A stretch of 64,000 nt of DNA from an uncultured Gammaproteobacteria bacterium (GTDB lineage: Bacteria; Pseudomonadota; Gammaproteobacteria; Arenicellales; JAANXG01), in contig CAVSUY010000015.1 in the NCBI GenBank assembly GCA_963731035.1, positions 50,955 through 114,954 of the forward strand, given 5' to 3'. Position numbers and translations under genes: made by a program. Below, piece by piece: positions 23,658 through 51,642 of the stretch. The stretch's first letter is position 1; each line of letters opens with the position of its first letter. Below the pieces are notes generated by a model. The model was not told the DNA's origin, made no database searches, and saw only the letters and a list, made by a program, of their open reading frames with translations.

Positions 23658-24972
23658 TCAGTCCAGAAAGAACTCTGTTGGATCGATGCCGAAGGAACCC
23701 GGCGCCAGACCGTGCTCTATCCAGAGCGTCTCCCGCCCGTGCTCCGCTCCGGATTCCCTGTTGAGGTCGATCACCGAAAATGAATCCAGGAACTCTTTCT
23801 CCGGATTCATAATCACCATGATCTCGGGGCGCAGCCGGCGAACACGGTTCTGCTTGGTGACGACGGCTATCTGGCCCGTATTCAGCTCGACCAGCGTTCC
23901 CGTGGGGAACACGCCGATGGCCTGAGTGAACTGGTCGATCAACTCGGCCTGGAACTCAATGTCGGCCTGTAGCCGCAGCTGCCGAAACGCATCGAACGAT
24001 GACATCGGTTTGGCGTACGACCGCGGCGTGATCATGGCGTCGTAGGCATCGACAATTCCGGCGATTCGCGCGAACACGGGAACCTGGCTTCCCCTGAGCC
24101 CGTTGGGATATCCCGAGCCGTTGAATCGCTCATGGTGATGGGCGACCATGTCCATGACGCGCTCGTCCACCTCCTTGGTCTCCTTCAGAATCTCGAGACC
24201 GAACTCGACGTGGCGCTTCATCAACGCGTATTCCTCGTCGGTCAGTTTTGTCGGCTTCTCGAGAATTTCATCCGGAAGGCGGATCTTGCCCATGTCCAGC
24301 AGCATGGCACCAAGGGCCACGACGTTCAAATCCTCGCGGTTCAAGCCGATGTGCCGGCCGAGGACCGTAGCCCAAACCAGGGACGCCAGCGAGTGGCGGT
24401 AGAGGTAGTCACCCTTGTTCTGCAGGCGAATGAGGTAAGCAAGGGCGGCCGGATTTCTGAGGATGCTGTCGACCATCGGGTTTACCGCGGTCTCCAGGCG
24501 CTGCACGTCCAGCTTGTCGGACAGGCGCAGGCCAGTCATCACTGCATGAACGGTTTCGACGGCTTCCTTGTGCACACCGGTCGCATTCGCGACCTCTTCC
24601 TTCAGACCCGTCGTTTCCTCATACACCGGTTGCCGTTGCGCGGATTGAATCCCGGTATGATCGAGATTCTGGTGTCGCCGCCGTCGCGAGCCGCAAGCGA
24701 AGCCAGCCTCGACGGCGCCCGTCCCGGCCAGTGCCTCCAATTCGCTCCGGAATCCAGGGCAACCGCCCGCGAGCCGGCCCTGCCGTGTCCTGCCCTGTCT
24801 CCAGGTAGATATAAACGTAGTCGCAGAATTTTCGAAGCTCGTCGATCTCGTCCTGTCCCCGGATATAGAACCCCTGGAACAGGAACGGCGTTTCGAGCCA
24901 CGGTCGATCGAGCTCGGCGACGTACATACCGATCTTGAGTTGATTTACACCGACCCTTACGCTCTTGAACAT
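23658..24972 (-). pseudogene. DUF3391 - HD-GYP c-di-GMP phosphodiesterase with one frame break in the inter-domain linker
   Basis: N-terminal MFKSVRVGVNQLKIGMYVAELDRPWLETPFLFQGF (ORF 24619-24972) and HD-GYP body HHHERFNGSGYPNGL (ORF 23658-24740) are colinear but in different frames. The junction is somewhere around 24700-24800. Confidence 0.72.
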
Positions 24973-25107: not shown

Positions 25108-25887
25108 CTAGGACGGCCCCATCGCGGAAACACTGGACAATGCGGGCGAGCCAGTGTAGTTGCCATCGGCGTCGAAGTAGGCGGAGTAGTCGTCATATAC
25201 ACCGCGGCTGATGAACTCCTCAATGGCGAGGAGCGCCCGTTCATCGCGGCTGTCAGCCACCTCCAAAGGCGAACCGGCGTGTATGCGGGCGTGGCTGCGG
25301 ATGAGGACCGCCGACACCAGGCGCCCCATGCCTCCCACGCCGGACAGGCGCACCGGAATAATGGGAACCTGCGCCATCGCGGCGAGCGCGATGACACCGC
25401 GCTTGAGGGGCTTGCGCGGATCGCTTGGCAGCCGGATACGGCCCTGGGGAAACAGCACCACCAACTCACCCTCGGCCAGCGCCCGCCTGGCCGAGTAAAA
25501 TGCCTTCTCGGGAGATCCCGTTCGATCCACCGGAATGCAGCCGATGAGATCGTAGAACCAGCGAAGAAGGGGATGTCTGTATTGTTCAGTGGCGATTACG
25601 AAACGCAGGGGCCGCGGGCTCGGCGGCACTGAGCAGAATCGGATCGACACCTGACAGGTGGTTGGCGGCAATGATAGCGCCGCCCGTCTCCGGTACCGGC
25701 AGCGACTCGTGCTCCAAGCGATGAAACCGCGCCGAGAATAGCCGCATCAGGCCGTCTAGGTGGTTGAGGAAAGCTACCGCCCCAATCGGCTTTTCCGTGC
25801 TTTCGCGCCGATACGTTCAAGCCTCCAGAACAGGCCCACGGCGACAAGGATTGGCGACGCGCCGACTACCCACCAGAGTGCATTCAT
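25108..25887 (-). pseudogene. PlsC-family acyltransferase with two frame breaks
   Basis: ATG 25885-25887 gives TM MNALWWVVGASPILVAVGLFW. The next frame gives AIIAANHLSGVDPILL (H-x4-D motif). The third frame (ORF 25108-25671) gives PLRFVIATEQYRHPLLRWF ... VVLFPQGRI. Breaks lie near the CCCC run at 25780-25783 and near 25610-25625. Confidence 0.7.
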
Positions 25888-30349: not shown

Positions 30350-31192
30350 ATGGCGTTCAACATGAAGATCAAAGCTGCCCTTGGAATCCTGCTTACCGCG
30401 ACCCTCCTCGCCGGTTGCAGCAACATCACGCTGTTCAAGGACAAGGATCGAAGCGGCTATACCGCGGAGCAATATTATAAAGACGCGAAGCATGACCTCG
30501 AGGGCAAGAATTACGCCAAGGCGATCGACTTGTACAAAGAGCTCGAGAGCACTTATCCCTATGGATCGTACACGGAACAGGCGCAGCTTGAAATCGCCTA
30601 CGCCTACTACAAAAACGACAATTCGGAGGCGGCGCTGGCGGCGGCCGACCGGTTCATACGCCTGCACCCCACCCATCCCAACGTCGACTACGCGTACTAC
30701 CTGAAGGGGATCATCAATTTCAGCGAAGCGAACACGTTTCTCGAGAAACTGACCAGAGGGGAAAGTTCTCCAGATCGCGACCCGCAATCCTCGGAGGAAT
30801 CCTACAACGCGTTCAAGGAACTGGTTAACCGGTTTCCCGACAGCTCCTACGCGCCAGACGCCCGGCAGCGGATGACGTTTCTGCACAATTCCCTTGCCAT
30901 GCACGAAGTGCACGTCGCCGACTACTACATGCGCCGGGAGGCCTACGTAGCCGTCCTCAATCGCTGCAAGTACGTTTTGAATCAGTTCCCGCGCACGCCC
31001 GCCGTCGAGCATGCCCTGGGACTGATGATGCTGGCCTATGGCAGGATGGGCCTCGAGGATCTGTCGGCGGACTCCCGGAGGGTATTGGCCCTGAACTTCC
31101 CGGACAGCCAGTACCTCACGGGCTCGCGGCCGCGAATCAAGGAGGAATTCAGCCTGCTTCCGGAGTCCGTGGACCTGAATCCGTTCAACTGA
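30350..31192 (+). CDS. bamD: Outer membrane protein assembly factor BamD
   Basis: ATG 30350. Lipobox LLAG|CS and TPR-like repeats (YYKDAKHDLEGKNYAKAIDLYKELESTYP). Divergent from rluD as in other Proteobacteria. Confidence 0.9.
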   Translation: MAFNMKIKAALGILLTATLLAGCSNITLFKDKDRSGYTAEQYYKDAKHDLEGKNYAKAIDLYKELESTYPYGSYTEQAQLEIAYAYYKNDNSEAALAAADRFIRLHPTHPNVDYAYYLKGIINFSEANTFLEKLTRGESSPDRDPQSSEESYNAFKELVNRFPDSSYAPDARQRMTFLHNSLAMHEVHVADYYMRREAYVAVLNRCKYVLNQFPRTPAVEHALGLMMLAYGRMGLEDLSADSRRVLALNFPDSQYLTGSRPRIKEEFSLLPESVDLNPFN

Positions 31193-31767
31193 TGCGGCTT
31201 GTACCGGATTCCGGGGCGCTCGGTCGCTGATCGCGGCTGAAGCCGCTCCTACAATCCGGGGGTGCGCACCGCGATGGAGCCCCGGATTGACTGATGGGGC
31301 TTGTGCCGGGTTCCGGGGCGCTCGGTCGCTGATCGCGGCTGAAGCCGCTCCTACAATCCGGGGGTGCGCACCGCGATGGAGCCCCGGATTGACTGATGGG
31401 GCTTGTGCCGGGTTCCGGGGCGCTCGGTCGCTGATCGCGGCTGAAGCCGCTCCTACAATCCGGGGGTGCGCACCGCGATGGAGCCCCGGATTGACTGATG
31501 GGGCTTGTGCCGGGTTCCGGGGCGCTCGGTCGCTGATCGCGGCTGAAGCCGCTCCTACAATCCGGGGGTGCGCACCGCGATGGAGCCCCGGATTGACTGA
31601 TGGGGCTTGTGCCGGGTTCCGGGGCGCTCGGTCGCTGATCGCGGCTGAAGCCGCTCCTACAATCCGGGGGTGCGCACCGCGATGGAGCCCCGGATTGACT
31701 GATGGGGCTTGTGCCGGGTTCCGGGGCGCTCGGTCGCTGATCGCGGCTGAAGCCGCTCCTACAATCC
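31189..31767. repeat. Tandem array of a 102-bp unit (5.7 copies), each unit containing one REP
   Basis: Unit CTGATGGGGCTTGTGCCGGGTTCCGGGGCGCTCGGTCGCTGATCGCGGCTGAAGCCGCTCCTACAATCCGGGGGTGCGCACCGCGATGGAGCCCCGGATTGA. Copies start at 31189 (3 mismatches), 31291, 31393, 31495, 31597 (identical) and 31699 (partial). The first unit includes the bamD TGA. Confidence 0.92.
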
Positions 31768-31793
31768 GACGTTCTATCGCATTGCCGATCCTC

Positions 31794-38335: not shown

Positions 38336-38416
38336 ATCGCGGCTGAAGCCGCTCCTACAATCCGATGACTAACGCAGTGCCGAACCCCGGATTGTAGGAG
38401 CGGCTTCAGCCGCGAT
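38336..38416. repeat. Inverted pair of REPs
   Basis: ATCGCGGCTGAAGCCGCTCCTACAATCC (38336-38363) and its reverse complement GGATTGTAGGAGCGGCTTCAGCCGCGAT (38389-38416). Confidence 0.88.
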
Positions 38417-38569
38417 TCCATCCCACGATTCAATCCCACGATTCCATCCCACGATTCCATCCCACGATTCCATCCCACGATTCCATCCCACGATTCCATC
38501 CCACGATTCCATCCCACGATTCGATCCCGCGATTCGATCCCGCGATTCAATCCCACGCGTCAATCCCCC
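38414..38569. repeat. 13-bp tandem repeat, 12 units (consensus GATTCCATCCCAC)
   Basis: Units start at 38414 and recur every 13 nt. Units 3-8 are identical and the flanking units carry 1-4 changes. The array starts in the last 3 nt of a REP and ends over the stop codon of the btuF-like gene (38560-38562). Confidence 0.92.
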
Positions 38570-43132: not shown

Positions 43133-43631
43133 GGTCTGGGGGCAAGCTGTTTGTGCGCCGCAGCATCGATCGTCGCAGAGCGGGTTCTCCCTGCTCGAGG
43201 CCTTGGTGACCCTGCTCATCCTGTCCATCGGATTGATGGGGCTGGCTTTGCTGCAGGCTCAGGGAATGCATCTGAATACCAGCGCCTACACCCGTACCCA
43301 GGCCTCCATACTGGCAGGCGATATCATCGACCGCATGCGGCTGAACGCAGCCAACGCCGCATCTTACGACACGAGTTCGTTCAGCCCGACCCCGTCCAGC
43401 TGCAGCGACACCTCGGCCCCGAGCGCCGACAATGACCGGAATTGCTGGTACCAGCTGCTTCGAACCTCACTGCCGGGCGGAAGCGGCGGCATAGCGGTGA
43501 ACAGCGGCATCGTCACCATCACCGTCAGCTGGGTCGAGCGGCCCGGGGCGACCCGAGGCAAGGATTTCGATCCCAGCACCCTGACATCCGCGGATCTGAT
43601 TCAACAGATGTCGATGAAGGTCGCACTATGA
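43086..43631 (+). CDS. pilV: Type IV pilus minor pilin PilV (start codon uncertain)
   Basis: HRSSQSG|FSLLEALVTLLILSIGLMGLALLQAQ prepilin signature plus the PilV-like body. The only in-frame canonical start is ATG 43086, giving an unusually long 33-residue leader. Confidence 0.78.
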   Translation: MIRSSDLASTSEHRSSVWGQAVCAPQHRSSQSGFSLLEALVTLLILSIGLMGLALLQAQGMHLNTSAYTRTQASILAGDIIDRMRLNAANAASYDTSSFSPTPSSCSDTSAPSADNDRNCWYQLLRTSLPGGSGGIAVNSGIVTITVSWVERPGATRGKDFDPSTLTSADLIQQMSMKVAL

Positions 43632-44590
43632 TCACGAAATATCGGTATTCCCGCGGCTTTTCGCTTACCGAGCTCCTGGTGGCGATGGTGATCGGTTTGG
43701 TCTTGCTCGGCGGCCTGGTAACCCTGATGGTCAACTCGAAGAAGAATTACTCCCAGCAGGAGTACAGCGCCCGTCTGCAGGAGAACGCGCGCTTCGCCAT
43801 GCAGTTCCTCACCTACGACGTCCGCATGGCCGGCTACTTCGGCTGCTCCAACAACATCATCAACAGCACCGTCGCCCCCATCACTTCCACGGAGAGCGCC
43901 AGCAGCGCCTCCGACAGCATCACCATTATCTACGGCGAACCGTACGATCCCGGGTCCGAGGTCACCCTCGATCCCGCCGCCTACGAGCCTTACAGCACGC
44001 CGAACACCCTGGTTGTCAACGGCACCATCCCATCCGAGTGGAAAGAGAACGACACCTTGGTCATCGGGGACTGCGGGAGCAATTCCATCGCCGATATAGC
44101 CGCCGACGGTATCAACACGTCGACCAACAGTATCGTGCTGGATCTCTCCAATACCTCGGCCGGCTCCCTGGGGCGCACGTACGATCCCAACATCACCACC
44201 GGCGGTCCCATCACGGTTCGTCGCCTGGTCACCAACGTCTACACGATTGCGAACGGCCAGAGCGGCATCCCGACCCTGATGCGCAATAACCAGGAACTGG
44301 TGGAAGGCATCGAAAACCTGCAATTGCTCTACCAGAGCCTGTCGGGCGGCGGCTTCGTCAACGGCGCTAGTCCGCCCTCCAACATTGCGGCAGTTCGGTT
44401 GGCGGCCCTGGTTCGCAGCGTGAGCAATGAGAACCTGAACGATCGGGAATACGGATCAGGCTCGGATATTAGCGAGGACAAGGGCCAGTACACGCTGCTC
44501 GGAACGAACGTAAGCTCGGATACCCCGACCATCCGCGGCCAACGGCGGATATTCAATAGCACCCTGATGGTGAGGAATCATTCGCTATGA
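43628..44590 (+). CDS. pilW: Type IV pilus minor pilin PilW
   Basis: Internal ATG 43628 overlaps the pilV stop (ATGA). YSRG|FSLTELLVAMVIGLVLLGGLV. Confidence 0.85.
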   Translation: MITKYRYSRGFSLTELLVAMVIGLVLLGGLVTLMVNSKKNYSQQEYSARLQENARFAMQFLTYDVRMAGYFGCSNNIINSTVAPITSTESASSASDSITIIYGEPYDPGSEVTLDPAAYEPYSTPNTLVVNGTIPSEWKENDTLVIGDCGSNSIADIAADGINTSTNSIVLDLSNTSAGSLGRTYDPNITTGGPITVRRLVTNVYTIANGQSGIPTLMRNNQELVEGIENLQLLYQSLSGGGFVNGASPPSNIAAVRLAALVRSVSNENLNDREYGSGSDISEDKGQYTLLGTNVSSDTPTIRGQRRIFNSTLMVRNHSL

Positions 44591-45102
44591 AGCGGCACAT
44601 GACCCGGATCCATTCGTTCCCGTCATCGTCGCCCCAGGCCCAGCGGGGCATCGTCCTGGTGGTGGGGCTTGTTTTCCTGCTGGTGCTCACCATCATAGGC
44701 GTCACCTCCCTGCGGACCACCACCCTGGAGGAGCGCATGGCCGGAAACCTGCAGCAGCGCACCGTCGCCTTTCAGGACGCGGAGGCCAAGATCGCGCTGG
44801 TGCTGGACAGCTTGAATACCGGCCAGTACAACCTCGATACCAACGACAGCTGCAGCTCGCTGGATCCCAGCACCTATCCGCCGGCAGTGAACCCCGACGT
44901 GGTCTCGAGCTATCACACCTGCGAGCAGTTCATCGGCAGCTCGACACCCGGCAGGCTCACCGACACGGCCGAAGGCAGCCAGACTTCCCTGCTGCATTTT
45001 CGCATTGAAAGCCAATCCACCACGGTAGGCAACGCCAACGTCACGCTGCAGCAGGGCGTGTATCAACGCGGCCCGAACGCACCGTCCATTCTGGAAGAGT
45101 AA
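44587..45102 (+). CDS. pilX: Type IV pilus minor pilin PilX
   Basis: ATG overlaps the pilW stop (ATGA). QRGIVLVVGLVFLLVLTIIGVTSLRTTTLEERMAGN matches the PilX N-terminal domain. Confidence 0.8.
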   Translation: MKRHMTRIHSFPSSSPQAQRGIVLVVGLVFLLVLTIIGVTSLRTTTLEERMAGNLQQRTVAFQDAEAKIALVLDSLNTGQYNLDTNDSCSSLDPSTYPPAVNPDVVSSYHTCEQFIGSSTPGRLTDTAEGSQTSLLHFRIESQSTTVGNANVTLQQGVYQRGPNAPSILEE

Positions 45103-45140: not shown

Positions 45141-48100
45141 ATGGTCAAGCAACACCAAGAACGCAAATACCACATGTTCAAACGCTTTTATATTATCGCG
45201 GCCGCCGCCTTGTATTTCGGCTGCTCCCTGTGGACGGGGCTACGCGCCGACGATGCGGCGATCTACGTGAACAAGGTGCCGTCGGCGGAGACGCCCAACG
45301 TGTTGTTCACCATCGACACCAGCGGCAGTATGGATACCGTCGTCCCGAATGGAACCCAGACGCGGATCGAAGCGGTCAAGTCCGCCTTGACCGATCTCGT
45401 CACCACCACCAGCAATTTGAAGGCCGGCCTGGAGCGATTTCATTATGAGCTGGGCGCTCCCATCGTCTTTCCGGTCATCAACCTGGACTCCGCCCCTGAC
45501 TTCCTCAACGGTTCGGTTTCGGTGTCGTCGATCGATCGATCGTCGGACGATGCCGCCGAAAGAAACGAGCCAGGTCTATCTCGACGACCGGTCGCTGAAT
45601 CTGACGCAGATCCAAACCGGAGGGGATGCCACTGTCAAGACCTTGGAACTGAGTCCACTCACGTCCAACGACGACGACGAGGCCGGCACCGCCGGCAACG
45701 AAACCCTGACCAGCCCCGACCTGGACGTCGGACAAACGAATGCCGGCGTCCGTTTCCCTGGCGTAACCATCCCCCGCAATGCCACGATTCTCCATGCGGA
45801 AGTGGAGTTCCGTCGAGAACAGCGGGCACAACGAGGATACGGATCTTCGGATATCTGGACACAATGTCAGCAATTCACCTGCTTTCACGGAGACCGGCGC
45901 CAACTCGGTGACATCGCGTTTTACCGCTCAGACCAATGCCCGCGTTGACTGGAGCAATGTCTCCTCCCTTTCGGCCGGCGACCATGTGACCACCCCGAAC
46001 GTGCGGAACATCATTCAGGAAATCGTTAACCGGAACGACTGGCCGACTACGGGCGGCAATCCGATCACCCTCCTCTTTGAGTCCCTCAGAGGACACCGCG
46101 AACTGAGCACCGTGGACGGCCCCGCGGCGCCCGTGCTGCGCATTGAGTACGTGGACTCCGGGACCAAAGTGCAGCAGCAGGTGCAGGAGCAGCAACGATG
46201 ACGGCAACGAAGTCTCCGGGCGAACCTGACGACCAATTACTATGGGTTCTCCATGCTGCACAACTACTTCAACAACTACGACTACAGCGATGCAGGCGTG
46301 CTGTTCCGGAATGTCGATATCCCCGATGACGCGGTGGTGGTGTGGTCGGATATCGCATTTCACGACCCGACAACGAGCAGCTCTCCGCTCCCGTCGACCT
46401 GGTGATCAAGCGGCATCCTGAACCCCTCCTTGGGCGGGTTCAGCAACGGCAACCGGATATCGACCCAACCCCTTACCACCTCCACGGTGGACTGGGTGGG
46501 CGATCTGAGCGAAGGGGACGAAGAGATCTTCACCCCCAACGACGGAGAGACCCTCTGGACGCCGAACCTGGCCCCACTCGTCGAAGAGATGCGGGCAAAT
46601 ACTTCATTCCAAAACGGCGATACCTTGGGTTTCGTCTTCACCGATCCCGATGGAGGCGACGTCAACGATCGTCAGGCGTGTTCCTTTGACGGCGCGCAGA
46701 ATACCGGCAAGAAGGGTGTCCCGAGGGCGCGGCCGGAAAGCCGACCCTCAACGTCTTCTACGCGTTCCCGACGGGAGCCACGACATTGCAGCAAGACGTC
46801 GGTCTTCGGTTCAACAACGTCCAGGTTCCGCAGGGCGCAACCATCACAAGCGCATCGCTGGAATTCACCGTGGACGCGGCGACTACGGATCCCGGCAATC
46901 TCACCATCGCCATCGAGGACAGCACCAGTCCGCAGACCTATTCCAACGACAGCGGACAGAAGATCAGCGACCGTGCGTATGGTACGTCCACCATCTGGAC
47001 TACCGACACCTGGGACATGATCGGCGACACCAAGCAAAGTGTGGACATCTCGTCTCTGGTGTCCTCGGTGACCGGCAAGACTGGCTGGTGCGGCGGCGGC
47101 TCACTGGCCTTTCGTATCACCAGCACCGATGCCAATTTGATCGCCCAGGCGTTCGACAAGGGCGCCAGCGGCGCCCCCACTCTCCGGGTCGCGTACAGGA
47201 CTGACACCCTTGGCAGCGGTGAGGGCTGCACCACGAGGAAGACATCGGTATCGATCAACGACCAGCGCAACGATTCGGAGGAAGCCAAGTACAACCTGGG
47301 TGGCTAGGGCCAGAATAGATACAACAAGGGTGACATAGACCTCTACAGCAGCGACCTGGATCTCGACGACCAATGGCTCGTCGGCCTCCGTTTCGAAAAT
47401 GTCGACGTTCCAGCCGGGGCAACGATCACCGAGCGCCAATCTGTACATGAGCTCCGCGAACTTCGACAGCGGCGAAGACAAAGTTTTGATCAATGTGCAG
47501 CAGCATCCGAATGCGCCGTCCTTCTCCAACGGCAGAAACAACCTCAGCAACCGAGTGAGCGATACCGTCGCACCGGTGACGTGGGATATTACGAACGATT
47601 GGAACCAGAATGGCATCTATTCGACCCAGGACAACGGCACCGATCTTACATCGCTGCTGCAGCCCATCATCGACGGCGACGTGACCGTCAACGGCGAGAC
47701 ATGGGCATCGGGGAACGCGCTGGCGCTGATCCTGGACGGCGGCCAAGGGCCGCAGAATCGACGAGGAGCATCCTGCTGCGGTTTTCCGTTGCCGGCCCGC
47801 CTGGATATCTCTTATCAGATCAACTTGGGCGATCAACCCAACCCGGCGAAATCACCGGGCGGGACGCCTTGTTGAGCATTGTCAACGATCTGGTCGCCAG
47901 CGGCTATACTCCTCCGGTGGACGCCTTGTACGAGGCAGGCGCCTATTTTGCAGGCGAAGCCGTGCACTTTGGCCGCACCCGCGGCGCCGGACAGAGCTAC
48001 GAGGCCACGGGACCGACCGATGAAGGGATATACACCAGCGACCTGGATTCGGACCTCATAAACAGATTCGGCCAGCCGCTGACCGACGCCGAGCTGCTGC

Positions 48101-51100
48101 GGGAAGGCGATCGCAGCCGGTTGAGTCATCCGGCGACCTACGGGGGTGGTGTCGATATCATCCGGGAGGGCAATTGCACGGCGACCGATCCCAATAATAG
48201 CGACTGCCGGACGGAGCATATGGCCAACGATGCACGAATGCGACCTATGATGTCGCCGTTCTCCACCGCCCAGGCCTGTGAAAAAGGATTCCTGGTGCTG
48301 CTGAGTGACGGCATCGCCAACCGCAACAGCTCCAGGGAACTGATCAAGACCCTCACGGGCCGAACCTCGTGCCCGATGCGGATTCCCCAGATCGACAACA
48401 ACGGCGACGCGATCATCAACAGCGGCAGCTTCTCTTTCCGCGATCCCACATCCGACTGAGCAGTGTGGCCTGGAGGTGGCTGATTACCTGCAGAAGACCG
48501 ATTTCATCCCCGAGGCCAATCCTGCCACCGACGTGTTGAACAACGTGCGCACCTTCACGATCGGCTTCAACCTGCCGATCGCGAACAGCACCGAGAACCG
48601 TCGGGCGGTCGAATTCCTGAAGGCTCTGGCTTTCGTCGGCAACGGCGGCGACCTGAATGATCCGAATGGCGTACCAGGACCTCAACTACGGAGACGACTT
48701 CTACACGGCCGACAACGCGGACCAGCTCAAAGATGTATTCAAGACCATCGTCAACGAGATCAACAAGGAAACCACGTCGTTCGTGGCTCCCGGTATATCG
48801 ATCAACGCCTTCAACCGCCTGTTCAACTTGAACGATATCTATTTCAGCCTTTTCCGTCCGGATGACAGAAGGTCGGCTGGCTGGGCAATATGAAGAAGTT
48901 CAAGCTGTGCGAGGAGAAGAACAGCGATACGTGTTCGTTCGGCGAGGTTATCGACAAGAACGGCAATCCCGCGGTGTACAGCGACATCACCAACCTGGAC
49001 AGCCTACGGCACCCTGAAGCCGGAGGCCCAGGGCTTCTGGAGCGACCCCGCGGACAGCGCGCCGGAGATAAACCAGGGCGGTGCCGGGGAGAAAATCCCG
49101 CCCTACACCGCGCGCAAGGTATACGTGAATACCAGCAGCGGCGCCGTTACCCCGCCGACCGACTTCAGCAACGTGAAGACGACCGGCACGGCACTCCATC
49201 CGATCGACCTAACCAGCAACGACGTGGACGGCGCCGGCACGGCGGACGACCCGACTTCCTTTACGGGCTTGAAGGCGGCGCTGCGCGACCAGGGCAACTG
49301 TACTACGGGGACCTTCGCCGAACAGAATGCCTGCCTCAACGACCTGATCTACTGGATGACGGGAGAGAAGTTCCCCGGTGACCTGCCAAGGTACGGCAAC
49401 GATAGCGACGTGGACCGCTGGGCTTTCGGCGATCCCATGCACAGCCGACCCCTGGTGCTCACCTACGGAAAGGATGACGCCACCGACACCATACTGTCGA
49501 AGATCTTCGTCGGTACGAACGACGGCGGCATTCGTATGCTCAACGAGGGAAACGGCATCGAAGAGTGGATCTTCTACCCGAACTCCATGCTGTCTTTGCA
49601 GTCCAGTCTAAAGGGCAACCCCAACGGCACCCATCTGTACGGCGTCGACGCCACTCCGACCGCGCGAATTCGCAACGTGAACGGGGACGGGATCATCGAC
49701 CCCACCGATGGAGACTTCGTGGACCTGTACTTCGGCCTGCGTCGGGGCGGCCGGCAGATCTTCGCCCTGAACGTGACGCCTGACTCCGAGGTCATCGGGG
49801 TCACCGACAACGATGGTAACGTCGTCGGCAAGAAAGGACCTCGTCGAGCCTGAGCTCCTGTGGCGCATCGACAGTACCGATAACAAGTTCACAGCGCCTC
49901 GGCCAGACCTGGAGCACGCCGCTGCCGGTGCGCATCGCCGGTGCCAACGGTCCGCGCACGGTGCTGATATTCGGCGGCGGCTACGATACGCGCCAAGACG
50001 GCACCGACACTGACGGCACTTCCCCGGATGGCGGAGACATCTATAACAACTCGAGCAACGGCGATTCCATGGGTAATGCCATATTCATCGTCGATGCCGA
50101 TACCGGCGAGCGCCTGTGGTGGGCCAGCAGCAGCAGCGACGGCAATGGCGACGCCCCCGACGCAGTCGTCAGCTCGATGAACACCGCCATCCCAGCCCCG
50201 ATCACCCCGTTGGATACCAACGAGGACGGACTGATCAGACCGGCTGTACGCTGTGGATCTTCGGGGACAGGTGTTTCGTGTCGATTTGGCAGTCACCAAA
50301 AACGCCACCACCGGTGAAAGCGACTTCAGTAGCAGCACCGTCGGTGTACTGGCGCGGCTGGGAACCGATGCCACAAACGAGGACCGCCGGAAGTTTTTCT
50401 ACGCACCCGAAGTCGCCCGCGTCAACGACGAGGCAGTGGTGCAGGAGCCGTACGAGCTGATTGGTATCGTCAGCGGCAATCGCGCCCAGCCTCAGGGCAA
50501 GACCGTTCAGGACCGCGCCTACGGGGTGCGCGACTTCCTGACCGACAATCCCGCCGCCGGACTGAGCAGCACCAACTTCCCGGCCTGCAATCCCTTGCTC
50601 ACCGGCTGCACTCCGGGAACACCCATCACCAACAGCGACCTCACGGACGTCACCGACAAGAGCGCGTTCGTGATTCGCCAACAGGACGGTGGGACGATTT
50701 CCCTGACCAATGCCAGCGGCACCGACCTGACTTCGTCGGATACCGCCCTGACCAACCTGAAGAACAGCTACGGCTGGTACTTCGACCTGCAGGGCGACGA
50801 ACTACGACTCTCAGGATCCGAACCCGCCGCTGACCGGGGAGAAGGGCTTCTCGACCGCAACGGTGCTGGGTGGACGGGAGTTCTGCACCACCTTCACGCC
50901 TCCGGGCGAGACTACCGACACCACCGACGTGTGCTCGGCACCCGCGGCCATCGGTACGTCGAGGTTCTATGCGGTAGACTTCTTCACCGGAGCGCCGGCC
51001 TTCGACCGGAACGCGGATAACACCTTCGACAAAGTCGAGCGCTTCACGAGCCTCGGCGCCGGACCTTCGGCGGATATCGTGCCGGCCTATCTGCCGGGCG

Positions 51101-51198
51101 GCGTGGTCCTCCCAGTGCCGACCGGCGCGGGCGCAGTACCGCAGGATCCCGGCCCGTTGACGACGGTGCATAAGACCTTCTGGATAGAAGAGGAATAA
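45141..51198 (+). pseudogene. pilY1: Giant PilY1-like pilus tip adhesin (vWA + four repeated modules + C-terminal propeller), frame broken at least 17 times plus one in-frame TAG
   Basis: Colinear coding pieces in all three frames, corresponding to ORF-track entries 45141, 45445, 45779, 46430, 46786, 47399, 47581, 48476, 48657, 48890, 49125, 49813, 49928, 50253 and 50863. See the first finding for motifs and break positions. Ends at TAA 51196-51198, directly before the pilE ATG. Confidence 0.8.
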
Positions 51199-51642
51199 AT
51201 GACAGAGGCACATAAACAGGCGCCAGGTCGCGCCCAACGAGGGTTCACGCTGATCGAGCTCCTGATCGTGGTGGCGGTGATCGCCATCTTGACGGCGATC
51301 GCGCTGCCCATGTACCGGGACTACGTGGTGAGGTCGAACCGCTCGGACGCGATCGTCTCGTTGACGGAGCTGGCCAACCTGGAGGAGAAGCACTACTCGA
51401 ACCAGTTGTCCTACACACCCACCATCAGCGCCTTGAGCTACTCGACGACGTCGCCGAACCGCTACTACAGTCTCAGCATCGCGACCAACTCCACTACGGG
51501 CTATACGTTGACCGCCACGCCGATCGGGCGGCAGTTAGCCGAGGACAAGACCTGCCAGCAGTTCACTCTGAACAGCTTCGGTCAGCGCAGCGCCGTGGAC
51601 TCGGGGGGAAACAACACGTCCCAGAAGTGCTGGAACCGGTAA
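51199..51642 (+). CDS. pilE: Type IV pilin-like protein PilE
   Basis: QRG|[36 protein letters not shown] and a C-terminal Cys pair (CQQF...QKC). Confidence 0.85.

What the first reader, a model, noticed from the sequence alone, without database searches (positions are those of the whole stretch)
45141..51198. Giant modular PilY1-like adhesin gene shattered by at least 17 frame changes and one in-frame stop
SEEN: no single ORF spans this 6.06 kb, yet colinear pieces in all three + frames read as one protein. (a) Signal peptide MFKRFYIIAAAALYFGCSLWTGLRA. (b) vWA/MIDAS start NVLFTIDTSGSMD. (c) Four modules of about 200 aa. Each has an acidic S-x-(N/D)D-x-EE patch, then a G-x-(R/L)F-x-x-V-x-(I/V)P-x-x-A-x-I strand pair (GVRFPGVTIPRNATILHAEVEF; GVLFRNVDIPDDAVVVWSDIAF; GLRFNNVQVPQGATITSASLEF; GLRFENVDVPAGATIT/SANLYM), and a closing P-x-L-x-(I/V)-x-Y strand. 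(d) The rest of the vWA fold: ITGRDALLSIVNDLVASGYTPPVDALYEAGAYFAGE; VADYLQKTDF..TFTIGF; DFYTADNADQLKDVFKTIVNEINK. (e) A PilY1-type C-terminal domain: LGQTWSTPLPVRIAG..VLIFGGGYD; DTNEDGLI/DRLYAVDLRGQVFRVDL; SYGWYFDLQGD; GEKGFSTATVLGGREFCTTFTP; SRFYAVDFFTG. Joining the pieces needs frame changes near 45560, 45810, 46187, 46222, 46368, 46410, 46720, 47431, 47845, 48457, 48671, 48868, 49000, 49836, 49896, 50237 and 50799 (by eye, each +/- 10-20 nt). TAG 47305-47307 is in frame with coding sequence on both sides. At 50237 a single extra A splits the DTNEDGLIDRLY loop. KNOWN: PilY1/PilC proteins are type IV pilus tip adhesins with a vWA-like N-terminal region and a C-terminal beta-propeller carrying a calcium-binding loop. 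They are usually about 1000-1200 aa. INFERENCE: this is either a heavily decayed pseudogene of an unusually large (about 2000 aa) PilY1 whose vWA domain is interrupted by four tandem modules, or a locally very poor consensus. I cannot name the module family with confidence; the GATITSA strand recalls DNRLRE/CBM-like jelly-roll domains.
Basis: partly seen in the sequence, partly recalled or inferred. Interest (0 to 1): 0.72.

Follow-up and report, generated by a model that had tools for sequence, protein, structure and literature searches.

The report
Intact giant pilus adhesin, garbled assembly
The broken-looking 6 kb gene is a real, very large type IV pilus tip protein (PilY1-like, 2013 aa when intact), and most of its roughly 20 frame breaks are best explained as errors made when an assembler merged two co-occurring strain versions of the gene, not as biological decay.

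Summary
Window 45141-51198 (+) reads as one colinear PilY1-like protein only after 17 frame changes, and it has one in-frame TAG. My blind dynamic programme found the same sites.

The pseudogene reading does not hold.
- The same gene is an uninterrupted 2013-aa ORF, in identical synteny, in four independent assemblies of the same species.
- All 24 indel events against that allele lie inside pilY1. Most are single-base insertions outside homopolymers.
- Where two intact in-frame alleles are known (R, and V = L046/L019), the window carries both alleles side by side. An example is R TC, V CA, window TCA. This gives +1 or +2 at eight or more sites.
- The same pattern breaks two other window genes, at 24.7 and 25.6-25.8 kb.
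- Chance gives this pattern at 1-2% per insertion.
- Window-private indels occur only where the strains differ densely.
- The alleles evolved under purifying selection, with dN/dS 0.14-0.54.

The window comes from a deposited MAG contig.

The gene itself is real. It has a signal peptide, a vWA/MIDAS start, four homologous beta-sandwich modules, what looks like the rest of the vWA fold, and a PilY1 propeller with a calcium loop. Interest is low.

The parts
45141..51198 (+). pilY1-like gene. It is 2013 aa (6042 nt) when intact. In the window it is 6058 nt with 24 indel events and one TAG relative to the intact R allele.
45174..45248 (+). Signal-peptide-like N-terminus MFKRFYIIAAAALYFGCSLWTGLRA. 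The called ORF starts 11 codons upstream, at 45141.
   Evidence: Read from the translation. No signal-peptide predictor was run.
45300..45440 (+). Start of the vWA domain with the MIDAS motif DTSGSM.
   Evidence: Pfam VWA_2 scores 22.2 bits on the N-terminal piece (cut-off 27) and matches 6 of 7 homologues at E<0.01.
45631..46156 (+). Beta-sandwich module 1 (R residues 164-338).
46163..46770 (+). Beta-sandwich module 2 (R residues 341-541). It contains a strain-variable patch at 46227-46290.
46777..47205 (+). Beta-sandwich module 3 (R residues 544-686). This is the only module in a single frame in the window.
   Evidence: AlphaFold2 model with mean pLDDT 76 and core about 90. Foldseek best match is the BMP9 prodomain at E 2.4e-4. 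DNRLRE_dom matches below threshold.
47305..47307 (+). In-frame TAG. It is TGG in R, L001 and L019, and is private to the window.
47227..47824 (+). Beta-sandwich module 4 (R residues 694-893).
47834..48869 (+). Probable remainder of the vWA fold (GFTPPVDAL, FLVLLSDGIANR, TFTIGFN, YGDDFYTADNADQL).
   Evidence: With the modules excised, the profile aligns to both ends of a vWA structure (4RCK), but only at E 0.09. There is a weak CglB match. This part is inferred.
48870..51195 (+). PilY1-type C-terminal region including the beta-propeller.
   Evidence: The family profile hits 3HX6 at E 3.6e-6. PF05567 matches 4 of 7 homologues, best E 1.1e-9.
50213..50240 (+). Calcium-loop motif DTNEDGLID, split in the window by an extra base at 50235-50237.
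   Evidence: It aligns to DNNSDGVAD of 3HX6. At this site R has TC, L019 and L046 have CA, and the window has TCA.
43628..44590 (+). pilW (320 aa), intact.
   Evidence: PF16074 on the identical product.
44587..45102 (+). pilX (171 aa), intact.
   Evidence: PF14341 on the orthologue.
51199..51642 (+). pilE-like pilin (147 aa), identical in 12 contigs.

Best explanation
The locus encodes a genuine giant PilY1-family type IV pilus tip protein, and its 'shattering' is mainly an assembly artefact.

How the artefact arose. The window comes from a metagenome-assembled contig. The sampled population holds at least two intact, in-frame pilY1 alleles (R and V). They differ by dense single- and multi-nucleotide substitutions. 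The consensus step merged reads of both. At many variant sites it kept the bases of both alleles in tandem, or dropped both, which gives +1, +2 or -1 errors. pilY1 is the most polymorphic long gene in the window, so it collected most of the errors. Two other locally polymorphic genes were hit in the same way.

How the real protein probably works (inferred from the family). It is exported through a signal peptide. With the minor pilins FimU/PilV/PilW/PilX it primes the pilus and sits at its tip. The C-terminal calcium-binding propeller governs extension and retraction. A vWA/MIDAS domain whose loop carries four beta-sandwich modules presents ligand-binding surfaces, possibly for glycans.
For: Shown:
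(1) The gene is an intact 2013-aa ORF in the same pilV-W-X-Y1-E / lspA-ileS synteny in L002, L003, L006 and L007. These come from ENA, JGI and Logan assemblies, and their IleS is identical to the window's.
(2) All 24 window indel events against R lie within 45567-50797. Eighteen are 1-nt insertions, mostly outside homopolymers. The window is net +16 nt.
(3) 'Union' sites, where the window holds both alleles:
- 45569: R AG, L019 GA, window GAG.
- 45810: R CCGC, L019 CGTC, window CCGTC.
- 48874: R AAGG, L019 GGTC, window AAGGTC.
- 49001: R AGC, L019 GCC, window AGCC.
- 49836, 49891 and 50235: hybrids of R and the intact V allele L046.
L019's own breaks at 49835, 49883 and 50379 are hybrids of the same two alleles.
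(4) Window insertions at 24690, 25621, 25770 and 25800 break an HD-domain gene and an acyltransferase gene. Each sits on a SNP between the two other haplotypes and carries both bases.
(5) At a 2-nt flank, 4 of 8 window-private insertions in pilY1 and 3 of 3 scored at 24.6-25.8 kb fit the union pattern. Simulation gives 1.3-1.8% per random insertion.
(6) All 15 window-private indels fall in 500-nt bins with at least 8 SNPs between the other two haplotypes. None falls in the 33 low-diversity bins. Spearman rho is 0.50, p 5e-5.
(7) Purifying selection in the R frame: dN/dS is 0.35 for L019-private changes, 0.54 for window-private changes, 0.14 for L046-private changes and 0.27 for the L019+L046 branch. 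On the last two combined, 28 of 45 changes are synonymous, p 1e-7 against neutrality.
(8) Window ORFs P0037 and P0038 are on record from NCBI and ENA on a 134,002-nt contig, and cluster mates are named as Arenicellales MAG proteins.
(9) Protein identity.
Against: No reads are available, so the artefact is inferred from sequence patterns alone.
- About ten indel events are shared by the window and one other assembly (L019, ENA ERZ25039500): 46239, 46357, 46366, 46411, 46711, 47431, 48457, 48676, and the in-frame 46734 and 48233. No intact V-type sequence covers that part of the gene, so they could not be tested as unions. They may be recurrent artefacts or real lesions.
- Five window-private events (46189, 46245, 47843, 48251, 50797) and the TAG at 47305 are not explained by any known allele.
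- One short-read relative (L001) has a 29-nt frameshifting deletion of its own, so real inactivation of pilY1 may occur in this population.
- The sequencing platform of the window's source is unknown to me.
Confidence: 0.85

Rival explanations
1. Mixed case. The strain behind the window (or the V lineage shared with L019) really carries an inactivated pilY1 with a few true lesions. Candidates are the TAG at 47305 and the indels shared with L019 at 46239-46411, 47431, 48457 and 48676. Consensus artefacts were added on top of these.
For: About ten indel events are shared by two different assemblies. The TAG and five private indels have no allele-merging explanation. L001 shows that frameshifting deletions in pilY1 occur in this population.
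Against: By parsimony the shared lesions would predate the L019/L046 split. Yet the C-terminal domain downstream of them kept evolving under strong purifying selection in that lineage (dN/dS 0.14-0.27, p 1e-7). L046 is an open frame over 652 codons. L019 itself demonstrably contains allele-merging errors (49835, 49883, 50379). The same pipeline working on the same pair of alleles could reproduce the same errors.
Confidence: 0.11
2. A true, heavily decayed pseudogene. All of the roughly 21 frame-changing indels and the stop are real mutations accumulated after loss of function.
For: The breaks are confined to one non-essential gene. That gene's substitution divergence (2.6%) exceeds that of its flanks at 0-1.2%. 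The window-private dN/dS of 0.54 is higher than that of the neighbour pilX, 0.26.
Against: Insertions outnumber deletions 20 to 4, whereas bacterial pseudogenes are biased towards deletions (my background knowledge). There is only one nonsense change alongside about 21 frameshifts. Eight or more insertions consist of the alternative allele of a polymorphism between two intact alleles, which chance gives at under 2% each. The same signature occurs in two other genes. dN/dS is well below 1.
Confidence: 0.03
3. Programmed recoding: the gene is expressed through many ribosomal frameshifts or through RNA editing.
For: None beyond the preserved coding signal in each piece.
Against: There is no common sequence motif at the shift sites. 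Near-identical strains encode the protein in a single frame. The shifts differ between the window and L019.
Confidence: 0.01

Closest known systems
Pseudomonas aeruginosa PilY1 (PDB 3HX6, C-terminal domain) and the Neisseria PilC family (Pfam PF05567)
   Same: Same position in the operon, after pilV-pilW-pilX and before pilE, next to lspA-ileS. The C-terminal region is homologous to 3HX6 at E 3.6e-6, with the calcium loop DTNEDGLID aligned to DNNSDGVAD. There is an N-terminal vWA-like start.
   Different: About 2013 aa, against about 1000-1200 aa for these proteins. Four beta-sandwich modules of about 150-200 aa sit after the first vWA strands. A single sequence scores below Pfam's PF05567 and VWA_2 cut-offs.
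Three-module PilY1 proteins of about 1570-1630 aa: P0011 (Ketobacter sp.), P0014 (Pseudomaricurvus alkylphenolicus), P0009, P0010
   Same: The same architecture of vWA, tandem modules and PilY1 propeller. Sources name them PilC/PilY family or VWA domain-containing proteins.
   Different: Three modules instead of four, and only 26-30% identity.
DNRLRE domain (NCBIfam NF033679), CBM96 (PF24517) and the TGF-beta propeptide jelly-roll
   Same: DNRLRE_dom matches 10 of 21 modules below threshold. The module HMM weakly hits a region of P0029, a protein with two CBM96 stretches. The best structural match is the BMP9 prodomain, and a CBM structure (8WAB) ranks lower.
   Different: All scores are below the curated cut-offs (23 bits against 34). 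TM-score is only 0.44. Strong module copies in other proteins lie in stretches with no Pfam match. No ligand is known.
Frameshift errors in long-read metagenome assemblies and the effect of microdiversity on MAG quality
   Same: Indel-type consensus errors truncate genes, and microdiversity degrades MAGs (PMC9262707; the proovframe preprint 10.1101/2021.08.23.457338, from its abstract).
   Different: Here the errors are not in homopolymers. They are tandem retention of both alleles at variant sites, concentrated in one hypervariable gene.

Membership tests
PilY1/PilC family (type IV pilus tip protein) | C-terminal beta-propeller domain homologous to PF05567 / PDB 3HX6 | tested here: met
   A profile of 7 full-length homologues hits 3HX6 at E 3.6e-6. 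PF05567 matches 4 of 7 homologues, best E 1.1e-9. The R allele on its own scores only 16.8 bits against a 28.1 cut-off.
PilY1/PilC family (type IV pilus tip protein) | Calcium-binding loop of the D-x-[DN]-x-D-G-x-x-D type in the propeller | tested here: met
   DTNEDGLID (R) and DTNEDGLTD (V) align to DNNSDGVAD of 3HX6. Calcium binding itself was not tested.
PilY1/PilC family (type IV pilus tip protein) | Encoded in the minor-pilin operon between pilX and pilE | tested here: met
   The neighbours are GspH/FimT-like, PilW (PF16074), PilX_N (PF14341) and an N_methyl/ComP_DUS pilin.
PilY1/PilC family (type IV pilus tip protein) | N-terminal vWA domain with MIDAS motif | tested here: inconclusive
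   VWA_2 scores 22.2 bits against a 27-bit cut-off, and matches 6 of 7 homologues at E<0.01. With the modules excised, the profile aligns to both ends of vWA structure 4RCK at only E 0.09.
Decayed pseudogene | Neutral substitution pattern (dN/dS about 1, no codon-position bias) since inactivation | tested here: not met
   dN/dS is 0.54 for window-private changes, 0.35 for L019-private changes, and 0.14-0.27 in the V lineage.
Decayed pseudogene | Lesions are independent mutations unrelated to polymorphisms of intact alleles | tested here: not met
   Eight or more insertions consist of both alleles of an R/V polymorphism in tandem. Chance gives 1.3-1.8% per insertion.
Decayed pseudogene | The same lesions are present in independent sequencing of the same strain | not testable with these tools
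   No reads are available. The window's own contig could not be retrieved. About ten events are shared with L019 only.
DNRLRE / CBM96 domain | Score above the curated HMM cut-off | tested here: not met
   NF033679 scores 23 bits against a 34-bit cut-off. It matches 10 of 21 modules, best E 5e-4. PF24517 matches none of the modules.
Strain-collapse consensus artefact | Indels coincide with inter-haplotype variant sites and carry both alleles | tested here: met
Strain-collapse consensus artefact | Two read populations at the locus in the source sample | not testable with these tools
   This needs the raw reads.

The most novel reading that the evidence does not exclude
Part of the damage is real. 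The V-type lineage, or the window's strain alone, has truly lost PilY1 through the shared frameshifts or the TAG at 47305. In that case one natural population holds both piliated strains and recently de-piliated strains of an Arenicellales-like bacterium, for instance under phage or grazing pressure. L001's 29-nt deletion fits this. Separately, the intact protein would be a pilus-tip adhesin that displays four copies of a beta-sandwich domain family with no Pfam model, and whose alleles diverge faster than the flanking genes.
Probability: 0.12. Interest if true: 0.3.

Novelty: not a real feature. Interest (0 to 1): 0.12.

Why it matters
The main value is as a caution. A gene that looks like a spectacularly decayed pseudogene in a MAG can be an intact, strain-variable gene whose alleles were merged during consensus. 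The signature found here is tandem retention of both alleles at variant sites, insertions far outnumbering deletions, errors confined to high-diversity stretches, and dN/dS below 1. It can be checked without reads whenever a few related contigs exist, and it could be used to flag false pseudogenes in long-read MAG catalogues.

The biology underneath is modest. It is a four-module, 2013-aa PilY1 found in only a few gammaproteobacterial MAGs. Three-module relatives are already annotated as PilY1. Its module family lacks a Pfam model and could merit a domain definition and a binding assay.

Tried and rejected
- Pfam on the conceptually repaired window protein gave no hit. Only profiles built from homologues gave significant matches.
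- I first read the window's alternation between R and L019/L046 states as proof of a chimeric mosaic. I rejected this argument because the site patterns fit a simple tree. The artefact case rests on the union indels, not on this.
- Two metagenome scans for a window-type or V-type allele found nothing useful. The first found no match. The second gave 8 chance matches in unrelated contigs.
- Exact-product look-ups for the window's first pilY1 fragment, its 242-aa fragment and its pilX found nothing, so the window's own record could not be retrieved.
- I considered a diversity-generating retroelement as the cause of the Tyr/Asn-rich variable patch at 46227-46290. There is no template-like repeat anywhere in the window.
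- I considered GATC-associated basecalling error. Only 3 of about 27 insertions lie near GATC, which is what chance gives (by eye).
- Testing whether the shared insertions sit at synonymous positions has no power. About half of random insertions would pass. I judged this by eye on six sites and ran no test.
- The window was not found by the scan of GTDB representative genomes, although it contains both search peptides.

Full report
**1.

Window 45141-51198 (+) has no ORF longer than 292 aa. The GC3 frame signal moves among the three + frames in a colinear way. The changes are at 45561, 45811, 46193, 46218, 46367, 46411, 46721, 47434, 47843, 48433, 48656, 48867, 49001, 49833, 49891, 50237 and 50802. 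The stop is the TAG at 47305.

**2. It is one gene, and intact versions exist**

The conceptually repaired protein finds full-length homologues of 1985-2011 aa at 54-63% identity and 100% coverage. It also finds a 91%-identical JGI protein named PilY1.

An exact look-up of the neighbouring pilin PilE returned 12 contigs. In four of them the gene between pilX and pilE is a single 2013-aa ORF in identical synteny:
- L002, an ENA contig of 1.46 Mb
- L003 and L007, from JGI
- L006, from Logan

The order is FimT/GspH-like, pilV, pilW, pilX, pilY1, pilE, then lspA, ileS, ribF and murJ on the other strand. The window's IleS is identical to theirs, so these are strains of one species. I call this allele R.

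**3. Anatomy of the damage**

Global DNA alignment to R gives 24 indel events in the window, all between 45567 and 50797:
- 18 single-base insertions, mostly outside homopolymers
- two 2-nt insertions (46733 CC and 48873 TC)
- single-base deletions at 46218, 46712 and 47844
- an in-frame deletion of 3 nt at 47746

The net change is +16 nt (6058 against 6042). Grouped from the multiple alignment, 21 of the 24 events change the frame; the in-frame ones are the shared +3 at 46734 and the -3 at 47743-47746. The same alignments show no indel in about 4 kb of upstream coding sequence. There is one indel (51760, outside any ORF) in about 10 kb downstream.

The stop is TGG>TAG and is private to the window.

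Substitutions private to the window amount to:
- 2.6% in pilY1
- 1.2% in pilV-X
- 0% in pilE
- 0.4-1.0% downstream

**4. A second haplotype, also 'broken', in another assembly**

The window's exact PilW occurs on ENA ERZ25039500 contig_10345 (L019; L015 and L017 are stretches of the same contig). There pilY1 is called as five ORFs.

Against R, L019 has 17 indel events, net +13. About ten are shared with the window: 46239, 46357, 46366, 46411, 46711, 46734 (+3), 47431, 48233 (+3 in total), 48457 and 48676. The rest are private to one or the other.

Substitutions fit a tree:
- 123 shared by the window and L019 against R
- 53 private to the window
- 90 private to L019

I first read the window's alternation between R-like and L019-like states as chimerism. 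I withdraw that argument, because it is what a three- or four-taxon tree produces anyway.

**5. The decisive pattern**

At window-private insertions, R and L019 differ by adjacent substitutions, and the window holds both versions in tandem:

| Site | R | L019 | Window |
|---|---|---|---|
| 45569 | AG | GA | GAG |
| 45810 | CCGC | CGTC | CCGTC |
| 48874 | AAGG | GGTC | AAGGTC |
| 49001 | AGC | GCC | AGCC |
| 50235 | TC | CA | TCA |

The 90%-identity cluster of the R protein contains a 652-aa uninterrupted C-terminal fragment from an NCBI Arenicellales MAG, on a 2,464-nt contig (P0035, locus L046). It has the V-type residues.

With this intact V allele over window 49255-51198, six of the seven frame-changing indels of the window and L019 in that stretch resolve as hybrids of two in-frame alleles:

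| Site | R | V (L046) | Window | L019 |
|---|---|---|---|---|
| 49836 | AAAGG-CC | CAGGA-CC | AAAGGACC (+1) | CAGG--CC (-1) |
| 49883/49891 | TC-CG…TTC-CA | TA-AC…TTC-AC | TA-AC…TTCACA (+1) | TCACG…TTC-AC (+1) |
| 50235 | TC | CA | TCA (+1) | CA |
| 50379 | A | C | A | CA (+1) |

Only the window's +A at 50797 has no known source.

**6. The same signature elsewhere in the window**

Against L015, the window has six indels in 22.6 kb. All six are single-base insertions: 13192, 15067, 24690, 25621, 25770 and 25800. Four of them break genes:
- The HD-domain gene is 437 aa in relatives but a 360-aa ORF (23658-24740, minus strand) in the window.
- The acyltransferase gene is 258 aa in relatives but a 187-aa ORF (25108-25671, minus strand) in the window.

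In a three-way alignment, each of the four sits on a SNP between the two other haplotypes (L016 and L017) and carries both bases. An example is 24690: L016 G, L017 C, window GC. That stretch is itself a diversity hot-spot, with about 8% divergence between L016 and L017.

**7. Statistics**

- With a 2-nt flank, 4 of 8 window-private insertions in pilY1 satisfy the strict union test. Of the four insertions at 24.6-25.8 kb, the script scored three (25770 fell outside its gap rule), and all 3 satisfy it.
- Random single-base insertions simulated on the same alignments pass at 1.3-1.8%.
- All 15 window-private indel events between 23.8 and 54.6 kb lie in 500-nt bins with at least 8 SNPs between the other two haplotypes. 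None lies in the 33 low-diversity bins. Spearman rho is 0.50, p 5e-5.

**8. Selection**

In the R reading frame, dN/dS is:
- 0.46 for the window against L001
- 0.54 for window-private changes
- 0.35 for L019-private changes, with codon positions 20/22/44

In the C-terminal 640 codons, dN/dS is 0.14 for L046-private changes and 0.27 for the L019+L046 branch. On those two combined, 28 of 45 changes are synonymous against 24.6% expected under neutrality, p 1e-7.

If the frameshifts shared by the window and L019 were real, by parsimony they would predate the L019/L046 split. They would then have silenced this downstream domain, which nevertheless stayed under purifying selection and is an open frame in L046. 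This argues that the shared breaks are also artefacts. I could not test them directly, because no intact V-type sequence covers 45.1-49.2 kb.

**9. Source of the window**

Two window ORFs (48657-48893, 78 aa; 49125-49853, 242 aa) are members P0037 and P0038 of the R cluster. They are recorded from NCBI and ENA on a 134,002-nt contig. Cluster mates and the closest named homologue are Arenicellales MAG proteins. The window is therefore from a deposited metagenome-assembled genome.

Its relatives in ENA carry Flye-style contig names. L016 likewise has a split AMP-binding gene that is whole in L017. A long-read origin for the window is my inference, not something shown.

Published work documents indel-driven gene truncation in long-read (meta)genomes and the effect of microdiversity on MAG quality (PMC9262707; 10.1101/2021.08.23.457338, from its abstract).

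**10. What the gene is**

The intact R protein has, in order:
- a signal-peptide-like N-terminus;
- a vWA start with DTSGSM (VWA_2 below threshold);
- four homologous modules at residues 164-338, 341-541, 544-686 and 694-893 (hhalign 95.7-98.8%; module HMM E below 1e-43 each);
- a stretch that plausibly completes the vWA fold, though it matches a vWA structure only at E 0.09;
- a C-terminal region homologous to P. aeruginosa PilY1 (3HX6, E 3.6e-6), including the calcium loop.

PF05567 matches 4 of 7 homologues.

An AlphaFold2 model of module 3 is a beta-sandwich, with mean pLDDT 76 and core about 90. Its best solved match is the BMP9 prodomain (E 2.4e-4, TM 0.44). Matches to carbohydrate-binding modules are weaker. 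NCBIfam DNRLRE_dom matches 10 of 21 modules below its cut-off.

The same module occurs elsewhere:
- three times in PilY1 proteins of about 1600 aa from Ketobacter and Pseudomaricurvus;
- in unrelated secreted multidomain proteins, in stretches with no Pfam match.

Among one genome per GTDB species, only two other genomes carry the four-module form (L020 and L021).

**11. Mechanism (inferred from the family)**

The protein is exported. With FimU and PilVWX it forms the priming and tip complex. The calcium-binding propeller controls extension and retraction. The vWA domain and its four outward-facing modules mediate attachment, possibly to glycans. The high allelic divergence, including a Tyr/Asn-rich patch at 46227-46290, suggests diversifying pressure on exposed surfaces. 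No DGR-type template repeat is present.

**12. Verdict**

The PilY1 identity and the four modules are confirmed. The pseudogene interpretation is rejected in favour of a strain-collapse consensus artefact, at confidence about 0.85.

What remains unresolved:
- about ten indels shared with L019
- five unexplained window-private indels
- the TAG at 47305

Reads or single-molecule amplicons would settle these. The interest of the finding as biology is low.

Noticed in passing
window 23658-24971 (-): The HD-domain/DUF3391 gene is 437 aa in L015 and L016 but only a 360-aa ORF in the window. The cause is a single-base insertion at 24690, which carries both alleles (G and C) of a SNP between L016 and L017.
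   Followed up: yes
window 25108-25884 (-): The acyltransferase gene (PF01553, 258 aa in relatives) is broken in the window by three +1 insertions at 25621, 25770 and 25800. Each sits on a SNP between the other two haplotypes. The stretch 24.5-26 kb is a diversity hot-spot, with about 8% divergence between L016 and L017.
   Followed up: yes
window 13192, 15067, 35701, 51760: Further single-base insertions relative to close relatives. All lie just outside ORFs (two of them a few bases past stop codons), and several have a SNP within 10 nt. They are probably the same type of error.
   Followed up: partly
window 31188-31768: A near-perfect tandem repeat lies between two genes: period 102 nt, 5.7 copies, 99% matches. 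The region aligns poorly and with many gaps to L016.
   Followed up: partly
window 38413-38557: A 13-nt tandem repeat (CGATTCCATCCCA, 11.2 copies). The window has one unit more than L019.
   Followed up: no
L001:4250-4270 (JGI 3300036922): An R-type pilY1 with its own 29-nt frameshifting deletion in the vWA region, so the gene is called as 1227-aa and 824-aa ORFs. It may be a real loss-of-function variant in the population.
   Followed up: partly
L016:2432-3989 (ENA ERZ25039495): The AMP-binding gene is split into 172-aa and 348-aa ORFs here but is 518 aa in L017 and the window. This suggests the related ENA assemblies also carry local indel errors.
   Followed up: no
window 46227-46290: A short hypervariable patch in module 2. 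The window reads TNYYGFSMLHNYFNNYDYSD where R reads TNSKVFSMLHHDNGNSVYSH, with 17 differences in 63 nt. No template-like repeat exists in the window.
   Followed up: yes
L046:230-250 (window ~49482): The intact V-type allele of the Arenicellales MAG GCA_049282175.1 has a 21-nt in-frame insertion that R, L019 and the window lack.
   Followed up: no
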